Of a DNA stretch of 14,288 nt, positions 9,887 to 11,345 are shown one piece after another; position 1 is the stretch's first letter, and the number at the start of each line of letters is the position of its first letter. Source of the DNA: a virus; the UHGV virus genome UHGV-0232082. One strand, given 5' to 3'. The position numbers were made by a program, and so were the translations under genes. A model generated the notes under the pieces. The model made no database searches and was not told the origin of the DNA. It saw nothing but the letters and a program-made list of their open reading frames with translations.

Positions 9887-10819
9887 ATGCATCGTATAGA
9901 CACGAAAACCGCGCAGAAGGATAAGTTCGGCGCGGGTAAGAACGGTTTTACCCGTGGTAACCCCCAGACCGGCACGCCTGCCACCGATCTGGATGATGAC
10001 TACTTTGACATGTTGCAGGAGGAGCTTTGCAGCGTGGTGGAGGCATCCGGTGCCAGCCTGGAGAAGGGGCGGCATGACCAGTTGCTTACAGCGCTTCGTG
10101 AGCTGCTGTTAAGCCGCAAGAATCCGTTTGGCGATATCAAATCGGATGGCACGGTGAAAACGGCTCTCGAAAACCTTGGTTTGGGAGATGGCTCGGGGCG
10201 TTACAGCAAAACTGTCGTTTTTTCATCGTCGGGTTCATATACGTGGCCAGCTGACGTAAAACGAATTGACGTTATTCTGACTGCGGCGGGCGGCGGTGGC
10301 GGTGGATGTAACGCGGAGAACGCAAATCAGACATTTTCAGGGGCTGGCGGAGGAGCCGGAGGTACTGTTTTTGCCACTATTTATGCGACAGACAACGATG
10401 CCGGGCCAGGGACCTATACAGTGACAATTGGTAGCGGTGGTAGTGGTGCCAATGGGCCAGGGTCTGGAAATAATGGCGGTCATAGTTCGTTCATGACATT
10501 AACTGCGCTCGGCGGCCAGGGTGGGCAATGGGGCGGCGCTACAAATACCGCTGGCGGGCTCGGTGGTTCAGGCTCTGGCGGTTATAAAACTGAACAAGGC
10601 GGAGACGGTTCAGACGGACAGGCGGGCCAGGCGCTATTAGTAGGCAATGGGGCATCGAGCTATTGGGGTGGCGGCGGCCGCGCTGGGCAACTGAGCGGTA
10701 ATTCTGGAGTTTGCTCTGGCTCCGGCGGCGGGGGTGCATACGATAATAGCTATTCACACACGTCAGGACGTGGCGGGCACGGAGCTAATGGCGTGCTGGT
10801 AATTCGGGAGTACATGTAA
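9887..10819 (+). CDS. Tail fiber protein: conserved N-terminal anchor (about 95 aa) fused to a glycine-rich C-terminal domain
   Basis: 310-aa ORF, RBS GGAG at 9877-9880. N-terminus [21 protein letters not shown] is a typical prophage tail-fiber N-terminus. From about residue 100 the protein is Gly-rich (GGGGGGC..., GxGG repeats) and the DNA drops in G+C. Stop TAA is directly followed by the ATG of the assembly gene. Confidence 0.8.
10164..10189 (+). other. Candidate DNA-invertase crossover site (gix/hix/cix-like, 12 + 2 + 12 bp) inside the tail fiber gene
   Basis: Sequence CTCTCGAAAACC-TT-GGTTTGGGAGAT contains the central AAACC-NN-GGTTT motif of Gin/Hin/Cin/Pin recombination sites, compared against remembered hixL and gix sequences. 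It encodes ALENLGLGD at residues about 93-101 and coincides with the drop in G+C. No partner site or invertase gene is seen in the window. Confidence 0.45.
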
Positions 10820-11224
10820 ATGAATGATGTTTATGCAGTTGTTGATAATAACGTTGTTATTGATGTCATTATCTGGGACGGAATTTCTGAATGGAAACCA
10901 GAGGCTGGTAATTTAGTTCCGTTAAACGGCGATGCTGGCATCGGTTGGTCATATTCAGACGGAGTATTTACCGCGCCACCTCCCCCAGAACGCTCTCACA
11001 ACGCGTTAGTTGCGGAGGCTGAGCTGCAGAAATCAGCACTACTGACCGTAGCAAATAACGCAATAGCACCGCTGCAGGATGCCGTTGATTTGGAAATGGC
11101 GACAGACGATGAACAGACGTTACTGCTGGCGTGGAAAAAATACAGGGTACTGCTGAACCGTGTTGATACCTCAGCGGCACCCGAAATAGAGTGGCCTACG
11201 CAACCGGGGGAGCGGGCCAGTTGA
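10820..11224 (+). CDS. Tail fiber assembly protein (Tfa / Mu gpU-like chaperone)
   Basis: 134-aa ORF starting at the tail fiber stop (TAAATG). C-terminus carries the motif pattern characteristic of Tfa proteins ([33 protein letters not shown]). AT-richer than the upstream tail genes. Confidence 0.8.
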
Positions 11225-11345
11225 TATCAGGCGCAGGGGCAGCATCAACTGCTGTCACTGCGTCGATGTAGTCGAGTACCGCATTCAGCCGCCTTTTTTC
11301 ATCATCAGTCAGTTTGCGGCCTACACCTCTCCGTTGACATCTTTG
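11196..11345 (-). pseudogene. Remnant of a second, oppositely oriented tail fiber assembly gene (U'-like), C-terminal about 45 codons only
   Basis: Minus-strand frame between stops at 11346-11348 and 11196-11198 translates to [49 protein letters not shown]. Ungapped alignment with the C-terminus of the + strand Tfa shares TDDE...L.A...Y......VD...AP.I.WP. No start codon or N-terminal part. The 3' end overlaps the + strand tfa by 29 bp. Confidence 0.6.

What the first reader, a model, noticed from the sequence alone, without database searches (positions are those of the whole stretch)
10164..11345. Fossil of a G-segment-like invertible tail-fiber cassette with no invertase
Three independent signals line up. 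(a) A 26-bp sequence with the AAACC-NN-GGTTT core of Gin/Hin/Cin/Pin crossover sites sits in-frame inside the tail fiber gene (10164-10189), at the boundary between the conserved N-terminal anchor and the variable C-terminal part. (b) Base composition drops at that same point and stays lower through the tfa gene. (c) A C-terminal fragment of a second Tfa lies on the opposite strand (11196-11345), convergent with and overlapping the intact tfa by 29 bp, the S-U / U'-S' geometry of Mu G, P1 C and e14 P segments. No invertase gene, partner crossover site or S' variable region is present, so the host range of this tail appears frozen in one orientation. The core motif is rare by chance in 14 kb, but this is recognition by eye.
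Basis: partly seen in the sequence, partly recalled or inferred. Interest (0 to 1): 0.7.

Follow-up and report, generated by a model that had tools for sequence, protein, structure and literature searches.

The report
Decayed invertible tail-fibre cassette
This E. coli prophage keeps one recombination site and a scrap of the second chaperone gene from a tail-fibre switch like that of prophage e14, but the rest was replaced by O-antigen-modifying genes, so it is an ordinary, non-switching relic of a well-known system.

Summary
It is a decayed copy of a well-known system, not something new.

- **Crossover site.** The 26-mer at 10164-10189 matches the left crossover site of the e14 P segment at 25 of 26 bases. 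It sits in frame at the constant/variable junction of a 310-aa tail-fibre gene. DNA homology to SfV, SfI, SfII, SfIV and e14 stops exactly there.
- **Second chaperone scrap.** The minus-strand piece at 11196-11321 is the last 41 codons of a TfaE-type tail-fibre assembly gene. It overlaps the intact tfa by 29 bp, as in complete cassettes of e14, a P1-like plasmid and a P2-like prophage.
- **Missing parts.** No partner site, no invertase and no alternative fibre tip exist in the window. None is found in the whole prophage of a strain identical over window 9800-11540.
- **What replaced them.** The missing half is occupied by a gtrCBA O-antigen glucosylation module. That module carries its own scrap of a P22-type tailspike gene.
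- **Spread.** The block from the crossover site through both scraps (to about 11467), with gtrB-gtrA at 97% but a different gtrC in between, recurs behind a second, unrelated baseplate. The distal junction (3' end of tfa onward) also sits behind a lambdoid tail fibre. K-12 CPS-53 (tfaS) holds a parallel relic.
- **Correction.** Bulk G+C does not drop at the site; only third-codon-position G+C does.

Interest is low.

The parts
9887..10819 (+). Tail-fibre gene, one continuous 310-aa ORF. Constant N-terminal part runs 9887-10163, the crossover site 10164-10189, and the variable glycine-rich tip 10190-10819.
   Evidence: ORF and translation. Pfam Gly_rich_2 E = 8.5e-18 on residues 114-307. Bases 9887-10189 are 96.7% identical to e14 stfP and 95.7% to SfV orf21, falling to about 30% straight after. 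PGAP splits the ORF at the site into an 'stfP pseudogene' and a 'glycine-rich protein'.
10164..10189 (+). Orphan pix-type crossover site, CTCTCGAAAACC-TT-GGTTTGGGAGAT. The central dinucleotide TT lies at 10176-10177. The site is read in frame as L-E-N-L-G-L-G-D.
   Evidence: 25/26 identical to e14 pixL. 22.6 bits on a gix/cix-only matrix, reached by 0 of 1000 shuffles. Megablast homology to SfV-family phages ends at 10188. Left half matches e14/SfV, and the right half with its final T matches L009, which carries the same tip.
10820..11224 (+). Intact tail-fibre assembly (chaperone) gene tfa, 134 aa.
   Evidence: Pfam Caudo_TAP E = 1.1e-32. Annotated as a tail fiber assembly protein in GF60.
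11196..11321 (-). Scrap of the second, convergent chaperone gene (tfa'): its last 41 codons plus the stop. It overlaps tfa by 29 bp. No usable start codon, so it is non-coding apart from the overlap.
   Evidence: Caudo_TAP E = 4.7e-10, profile 95-130 of 131. TfaE residues 160-200, 68% identity. Longest start-to-stop ORF in this frame is 20 aa. Collinear without gaps with e14 tfaP/tfaE and CPS-53 yfdK/tfaS. PGAP pseudogene 'missing N-terminus'.
11343..11480 (+). Scrap of the 3' end of a P22-type tailspike gene, brought in with the gtr module. It is not part of the invertible cassette but marks where the cassette was cut.
   Evidence: Window 11397-14288 is 99.2% identical to a P22-like prophage in which this stretch is the end of a full-length 587-aa tailspike gene next to the same gtrC. 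The peptide matches C-terminal stretches of tail fibre and tailspike proteins in 165 phage records.
11478..11528 (.). Strong hairpin between the convergent tail genes and the gtr operon. Likely a two-way transcription terminator (inferred).
   Evidence: Minimum free energy -24.4 kcal/mol, z = -7.1 against shuffles. The simple terminator scan did not call it.
11526..14288 (-). gtrC (11526-13013), gtrB (13000-13929) and gtrA (13926-14288): the O-antigen glucosylation module that occupies the place where e14 has tfaE 5' end, stfE, pixR, pinE and mcrA.
   Evidence: Pfam Glucos_trans_II E = 1.1e-26, Glycos_transf_2 E = 2.9e-30, GtrA_DPMS_TM E = 2e-13. In GF60 the host gene ybhB follows gtrA directly.

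Best explanation
This is the remnant of a Pin-type (e14 P-segment-like) invertible tail-fibre cassette in an SfV/e14-like prophage with a Mu-type tail, integrated between ybhC and ybhB in E. coli.

What survives:
- the left crossover site, kept in frame inside the tail-fibre gene;
- one variable fibre tip (a glycine-rich domain) with its chaperone gene tfa, which is the single pair the phage can express;
- the last 41 codons of the opposing chaperone gene tfa'.

What is gone: the 5' part of tfa', the alternative fibre tip, the right crossover site, and the invertase gene. By analogy with P1 cin, the invertase gene would also have carried the recombinational enhancer. Their place is taken by a gtrCBA O-antigen glucosylation module that brought along the 3' end of a P22-type tailspike gene.

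With one site, no enhancer and no invertase in cis, the segment cannot invert, so the fibre specificity is fixed. The sequence and architecture are shown directly; the non-inversion is inferred.

The decay probably predates this prophage. The block from the crossover point through both scraps, with closely related gtrB-gtrA but a different gtrC, also occurs at the same chromosomal site behind an unrelated baseplate. The junction from the 3' end of tfa onward occurs behind a lambdoid tail fibre. So the crossover site and the gene scraps now mark module boundaries. Whether they actively promote the exchange is inferred.
For: - Site identity and significance.
- Published evidence that the e14 repeat TTGGTTTGGGAGAAGG flanks the segment inverted by PinQ/PinR/PinE: PMC12529663. 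The window has 15/16 of it.
- Homology to SfV and e14 ends at 10188-10191.
- e14 has the full cassette at the homologous position, including the same 29-bp tfaP/tfaE overlap.
- The closest diverged relatives of the tfa/tfa' junction (74.6% nt identity) lie in complete cassettes with two full chaperone genes, a second fibre tip and a serine recombinase, in a P1-like plasmid and a P2-like prophage.
- The tfa' scrap is a Caudo_TAP C-terminus.
- No invertase by tblastn with PinE, Gin or Cin at E up to 10 in the window, and only chance-level alignments (E 2.9 or higher) in 71 kb around it, with strong positive controls. None is annotated.
- No partner site above the shuffle range.
- 66 complete E. 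coli genomes hold at least 80% of the 1741-bp query in one place, and all 30 listed are single collinear pieces.
- Mosaic map.
- In 20 loci from other Enterobacterales carrying the exact site, 11 have a Pin homologue within the 8-kb piece and one shows two inverted sites 1.9 kb apart.
Against: - No experiment or read-level data were available, so rare inversion or recombination in trans is excluded only by sequence logic.
- The enhancer was not searched for as a motif. Its absence follows from the absence of any invertase-gene DNA.
- The full-length parent of this particular tfa' allele was not found. The best phage matches are 73-77% identical.
- The order of events, decay before or after acquiring gtr, is not resolved.
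- Conservation of the site may reflect only the protein motif it encodes (ENLGLG), not any remaining role in recombination.
Confidence: 0.85

Rival explanations
1. The cassette decayed in place in this prophage lineage: a deletion or illegitimate recombination inside an SfV-like phage that once carried pin removed the distal half, and gtr arrived afterwards.
For: Relatives with the same constant fibre part carry pin and mcrA (e14; phage vB_EcoM-689R6). CPS-53 shows a different truncation point (95 codons of a tfaE allele 94% identical to e14's) next to gtr, so such decays do recur.
Against: The identical pair of scraps (tfa' and tailspike) with the same junction is found behind an unrelated baseplate (L009) and a lambdoid fibre (L008). 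This is explained more simply if the already decayed block was imported by recombination at the crossover site.
Confidence: 0.25
2. The segment is still invertible, or still recombines, through an invertase supplied in trans by another prophage (PinE, PinQ or PinR type), using a cryptic partner site.
For: Pin enzymes of other prophages invert the e14 segment in trans (PMC12529663). The surviving site differs from the e14 site only at its outermost base.
Against: No second site above the noise level in the 71 kb examined: best other score 14.2 bits, against a shuffle maximum of 18.0 and 20.5-29.1 for real sites. No invertase-gene DNA, which is where P1 keeps its enhancer. None of the complete genomes carrying this tip showed an inverted arrangement. 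GF60 has no second copy of the constant part (places_in_record = 1).
Confidence: 0.05
3. The three signals are coincidental: a chance palindrome in a tail-fibre gene plus an unrelated short reverse-strand ORF.
For: The 12-nt core alone is not improbable in 14 kb: 64 of 200 shuffles give at least one match when one mismatch is allowed.
Against: 25/26 identity to the e14 site in the same codon context, a homology breakpoint at the site, a Pfam-significant Tfa C-terminus, and gap-free collinearity with complete cassettes.
Confidence: 0.01

Closest known systems
P segment of cryptic prophage e14 (stfP-tfaP-tfaE-stfE-pinE), E. coli K-12
   Same: Same Mu-type tail module and the same constant fibre part (96.7% nt). 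The left crossover site is 25/26 identical and in the same reading frame. Same convergent chaperone genes overlapping by 29 bp.
   Different: The window lacks the 5' 80% of tfaE, plus stfE, the right site, pinE and mcrA. It has a different fibre tip (glycine-rich domain) and chaperone allele. gtrCBA sits where pinE-mcrA sit in e14.
CPS-53 (KpLE1) remnant in E. coli K-12: yfdL-yfdK-tfaS'-yodE-yfdI-yfdH-yfdG
   Same: The same kind of relic: a fibre gene with the site, an intact tfa, a convergent tfa' pseudogene overlapping it by 29 bp, then gtr genes and no invertase.
   Different: The scrap there is 95 codons of an allele 94% identical to TfaE, against 41 codons at 68% here. That points to an independent truncation. 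No tailspike scrap is present, and YodE is unrelated to the window's scrap ORF.
Serotype-converting phages SfV, SfI, SfII and SfIV of Shigella flexneri
   Same: Same tail module and constant fibre part up to the crossover site (96-97% nt), followed by a tip, tfa and gtr genes, with no invertase.
   Different: SfV has no detectable tfa' scrap. It has a different fibre tip and a different serotype-specific gtr gene.
G segment of Mu (Gin) and C segment of P1 (Cin)
   Same: Same logic: a constant/variable split of the fibre gene at a 26-bp site with an AAACC-NN-GGTTT core, two convergent fibre-tip and chaperone pairs, and an adjacent serine invertase.
   Different: Site identity is only 17-19 of 26. 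U and U' there do not overlap; they are 28 bp apart. Both are complete, working switches.

Membership tests
Serine-invertase (Gin/Cin/Pin) invertible tail-fibre cassette | A 26-bp crossover site in frame at the constant/variable junction of the tail-fibre gene | tested here: met
   25/26 to e14 pixL. 22.6 bits on a gix/cix-only matrix, reached by 0 of 1000 shuffles. Homology breakpoint lies at the site.
Serine-invertase (Gin/Cin/Pin) invertible tail-fibre cassette | A second crossover site in inverted orientation bounding the segment | tested here: not met
   No other candidate above the shuffle range in the window or in 71 kb of the identical GF60 prophage and its flanks.
Serine-invertase (Gin/Cin/Pin) invertible tail-fibre cassette | An adjacent serine recombinase (invertase) gene | tested here: not met
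   tblastn with PinE, Gin and Cin at E up to 10 gives nothing in the window and only chance-level alignments (E 2.9 or higher) in L003 and L005. Positive controls score E below 1e-90. None is annotated.
Serine-invertase (Gin/Cin/Pin) invertible tail-fibre cassette | A recombinational enhancer in cis (annotated inside the 5' part of cin in P1) | tested here: inconclusive
   No DNA similar to the pinE region except the 24-nt site repeat. P1 annotates the enhancer inside cin. The enhancer was not searched for as a separate motif.
Serine-invertase (Gin/Cin/Pin) invertible tail-fibre cassette | Two convergent sets of variable fibre tip plus chaperone gene | tested here: not met
   One full set is present (10190-11224). 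The second is reduced to 41 codons of the chaperone, and there is no alternative tip.
Serine-invertase (Gin/Cin/Pin) invertible tail-fibre cassette | Both orientations observed in populations or among genomes | tested here: not met
   66 complete genomes hold at least 80% of the locus in one place, and all 30 listed are single collinear pieces; no inverted form was seen. Read-level data could not be tested with these tools.
Caudo_TAP (tail fibre assembly protein, Pfam PF02413) | Profile match above the gathering score | tested here: met
   tfa: 113.4 bits. Minus-strand scrap: 40.2 bits. Cut-off is 22.1.
gtrABC O-antigen glucosylation cluster of temperate phages | GtrA flippase-like, GtrB family-2 glycosyltransferase and a serotype-specific GtrC, in one operon at the prophage end | tested here: met
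   Pfam hits for all three genes. The cluster lies next to the host gene ybhB at the prophage end. Function was not tested.

The most novel reading that the evidence does not exclude
The orphan crossover site is not inert. It still serves as the precise joint at which a whole right-end block (fibre tip, chaperone, scraps and gtr genes) is swapped between prophages with unrelated tails.

This could happen through Pin supplied in trans acting on single sites carried by two genomes, or through recombination on the 13-bp identity. Host range and O-antigen conversion would then move together as one unit.

The evidence does not exclude this. Within the site, the left half matches the SfV/e14 constant part and the right half matches the tip shared with an unrelated baseplate (L009). 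This places the joint within a 14-bp interval containing the crossover dinucleotide.
Probability: 0.2. Interest if true: 0.45.

Novelty: new member of a known kind. Interest (0 to 1): 0.2.

Why it matters
Practical value is modest.

- It explains why automatic annotation breaks this intact 310-aa tail-fibre gene into a 'pseudogene' plus a separate ORF.
- It explains why a stray tail fiber assembly pseudogene sits next to gtr operons in many E. coli prophages.
- It gives a clean example of how host-range switches are lost.
- It shows how crossover sites and gene scraps mark the seams of phage mosaics, with fibre tip and O-antigen modification genes inherited as one block.

It does not reveal a new mechanism.

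Tried and rejected
- **Fibre tip against phages.** tblastn of the glycine-rich tip against 50,697 phage records found nothing. The low-complexity filter may be responsible, so no conclusion was drawn.
- **Parent of the tfa' allele.** I looked for its full-length parent in phages. Only two matches appeared, at 73-77% identity.
- **YodE.** I asked whether K-12 YodE, a 48-aa ORF in the position equivalent to the window's 48-aa scrap ORF, is homologous or is a tail-gene scrap. The sequences are unrelated and YodE has no phage match, so the idea was dropped.
- **Literature.** Mehta et al. 2004 on e14 is not held. No held paper describes a decayed cassette next to gtr. The tfaS mentions in PMC2951348 use it only as a marker.
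- **Bulk G+C step at the site.** Rejected.
- **Terminator scan.** The simple scan found none in 11100-11600, although folding shows a strong hairpin.
- **Large searches not run.** The large protein-database, structure-prediction and metagenome searches were not used, because the answer did not depend on them.

Full report
**What the window is.** The window holds the tail module of a prophage with a Mu-type contractile tail: sheath, tube, tape measure, and homologues of Mu gp43 to gp48. These are followed by a tail-fibre gene, a tail-fibre assembly gene and, on the other strand, gtrC, gtrB and gtrA. Bases 9800-11540 are 100% identical to the chromosome of E. coli GF60. There the prophage lies between ybhC and ybhB. 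It has a tyrosine integrase at the far end, and gtrA is its last gene. Its closest named relatives are the Shigella serotype-converting phages SfV, SfI, SfII and SfIV and the K-12 cryptic prophage e14.

**The site.** Bases 10164-10189 read CTCTCGAAAACC-TT-GGTTTGGGAGAT.
- The 12-nt core alone is not statistically remarkable in 14 kb.
- I read the annotated crossover sites of Mu and P1 from their records and built a half-site weight matrix from those two phages only. On it the window site scores 22.6 bits. The two e14 sites score 20.5 and 25.8, and gix and cix score 27.5-29.1.
- None of 1000 shuffles of the window reached 22.6 (highest 18.0). The next best position in the window scores 9.2.
- The site is 25/26 identical to the one inside e14 stfP.
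- A 2025 paper reports that the 1797-bp e14 P segment, inverted by PinQ, PinR and PinE, is flanked by TTGGTTTGGGAGAAGG and its complement (PMC12529663). The window has 15 of those 16 bases.
- The site is read in frame as ENLGLGD, the same frame as in e14, SfV and CPS-53.

**The site is the mosaic boundary.**
- Identity to e14 and SfV is 96.7% and 95.7% up to 10189, and about 30% in the next 70 bases.
- Megablast matches to twelve SfV/e14-like phage records covering the whole constant part, and to three more covering only its last 80 bases, end at 10188-10194.
- In the other direction, a prophage with an unrelated baseplate (L009) shares everything from the centre of the site rightwards at 97.3%. 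Its own site is a hybrid, CTCTTTCATACC-TT-GGTTTGGGAGAT.
- Within the window's site the left half therefore goes with the constant part and the right half, including its final T, goes with the variable block.

**Composition.** Bulk G+C does not fall at the site (0.560 before, 0.573 after) because the variable part is rich in glycine codons. Third-position G+C does fall, from 0.674 to 0.467, and to 0.444 in tfa. The upstream tail genes lie at 0.54-0.64.

**The second chaperone scrap.**
- The minus-strand translation of 11196-11321 matches Pfam Caudo_TAP at E = 4.7e-10, above the gathering score, over profile positions 95-130 of 131.
- It aligns to residues 160-200 of e14 TfaE at 68% identity.
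- The frame has no start codon giving more than 20 residues.
- The 29-bp overlap with the intact tfa is exactly that of tfaP/tfaE in e14 and yfdK/tfaS in CPS-53. The three junctions align without gaps at about 65% nucleotide identity. Mu and P1 instead have a 28-bp gap between U and U'.
- The nearest diverged relatives of this junction in E. coli (74.6% over 126 bp) lie in complete cassettes in a P1-like plasmid and a P2-like prophage. Each has two full chaperone genes overlapping by 29 bp, a second fibre tip and a recombinase 82-87% identical to PinE.

**What is missing.**
- tblastn with PinE, Gin and Cin at E up to 10 finds nothing in the window and only chance-level alignments (E 2.9 or higher) in 71 kb covering the entire GF60 prophage and its flanks. 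Positive controls score E below 1e-90.
- No invertase is annotated there.
- No second site rises above the shuffle range.
- The only similarity to the pinE region is the 24-nt repeat that is the site itself.
- GF60 has no second copy of the constant fibre part, so it has no e14-like cassette to pair with.
- Among 5426 complete E. coli genomes, 1872 match some part of window 9800-11540, in most cases only the roughly 390 bp ending at the crossover site. Only 69 carry this tip, and 66 hold at least 80% of the whole locus in one place. All 30 listed are single collinear pieces and none shows an inverted arrangement.

**What replaced it.** Downstream of the scrap lies a 48-codon plus-strand ORF whose peptide resembles C-terminal stretches of many tail fibres and tailspikes. 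In strain GF66.2 the stretch 11397-14288 is 99.2% identical to a P22-like prophage. There the same bases are the end of a full-length tailspike gene next to the same gtrC. So the gtr module arrived with a scrap of a tailspike gene. A strong hairpin (-24.4 kcal/mol, z = -7.1) separates it from gtrC.

**The relic travels.**
- The same pair of scraps lies next to gtr genes behind three kinds of tail: this SfV-like one, also seen with a different gtrC (L007); the unrelated baseplate of L009; and a lambdoid long fibre where even tfa is cut down to 30 codons (L008).
- Homology breakpoints in these comparisons fall at the crossover site, inside the tailspike scrap (11397, 11429, 11467) and near the start of gtrB (about 12990-13010).
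- The simplest reading is that the decay happened once in an ancestor, and that the block has since been exchanged by recombination at these conserved seams.
- CPS-53 in K-12 carries a different truncation (95 codons of an allele 94% identical to TfaE), so a similar decay has happened at least twice. SfV keeps the site but has no scrap.

**Wider distribution.** An exact scan of one genome per bacterial species for the site (20 specified bases) returned 20 loci. Eighteen are from Enterobacterales (Escherichia, Shigella, Salmonella, Mangrovibacter, Erwinia, Rosenbergiella, Lonsdalea); two are metagenome bins labelled otherwise. Eleven have a Pin homologue inside the 8-kb piece. One has two inverted sites 1.9 kb apart around two chaperone genes. 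Two are CPS-53-like, with gtr genes and a TfaE scrap. Working switches of this type are therefore common, and decayed ones sit beside gtr genes.

**Verdict.**
- the scrap ends at 11321;
- the G+C step is seen only at third codon positions;
- a tailspike scrap is also present;
- the relic was probably inherited as part of a mobile block rather than decaying in place.

The locus fails the defining tests of a working invertible cassette (second site, invertase, second tip). It is best filed as a relic of one. No held paper describes this particular relic, but the system, its sites and parallel relics are well known, and RefSeq already annotates the pseudogene. Interest is low. The only reading with some novelty is that the orphan site still acts as an exchange joint, and sequence data alone cannot separate that from recombination on short homology.

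Noticed in passing
window 11343-11480 (+): A 48-codon ORF whose last ~28 codons (11397-11480) are 98-99% identical at the DNA level to the 3' end of a full-length P22-type tailspike gene next to the same gtrC in E. coli GF66.2; its upstream part resembles tailspike and tail-fibre C-termini more generally. 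It is a second, unrelated gene scrap stacked against the tfa' scrap.
   Followed up: yes
window 11478-11528: Strong hairpin (-24.4 kcal/mol, z = -7.1) between the convergent tail genes and gtrC. Probably a two-way terminator, but the simple terminator scan misses it.
   Followed up: partly
window 9887-10819; L003 20088-21020: PGAP splits the continuous 310-aa tail-fibre ORF exactly at the crossover site into an 'stfP pseudogene, missing C-terminus' and a separate 'glycine-rich domain-containing protein'. This looks like an annotation artefact of the mosaic junction.
   Followed up: partly
window 11526-13013 (-); L007, L009, L010: gtrC is very AT-rich (G+C 0.31, against 0.44-0.46 for gtrB and gtrA). 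It is swapped as a cassette between otherwise near-identical prophages. The breakpoints fall inside the tailspike scrap (11397-11467) and near the gtrC/gtrB junction (about 12990-13010).
   Followed up: partly
L009 3974-3999: Hybrid crossover site CTCTTTCATACC-TT-GGTTTGGGAGAT in a tail-fibre gene of an unrelated baseplate type (with a DUF2612 protein). It carries the same fibre tip, chaperone and scraps as the window, and sits at the same chromosomal site (ybhB/bioA).
   Followed up: yes
L002 5372-5590 (phage vB_EcoM-689R6): An induced e14-like phage with the same constant fibre part, plus mcrA and a DNA invertase. It has the StfE-type tip in the expressed position and a run of N inside the cassette. 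This suggests the assembly broke at an actively inverting segment.
   Followed up: partly
L007 5512-5537: A gix-like core (TATATTCAAACCTCGGTTTACATCAA, 15 bases identical to Mu gix) lies inside a different gtrC allele. It is most likely chance, and its central dinucleotide TC differs from the TT of the fibre site.
   Followed up: no
L005 1284-2168 (GF60 prophage, outside the window): The same prophage carries a gene annotated as a Kiwa KwaB-like anti-phage protein between the Q antiterminator and the lysis genes.
   Followed up: no
L006 5498-6106 (K-12 CPS-53): K-12 has a parallel relic (tfaS pseudogene overlapping yfdK by 29 bp, next to gtr genes). A 48-aa 'toxic protein YodE' ORF sits in the position equivalent to the window's 48-aa scrap ORF. 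The two peptides are unrelated.
   Followed up: yes
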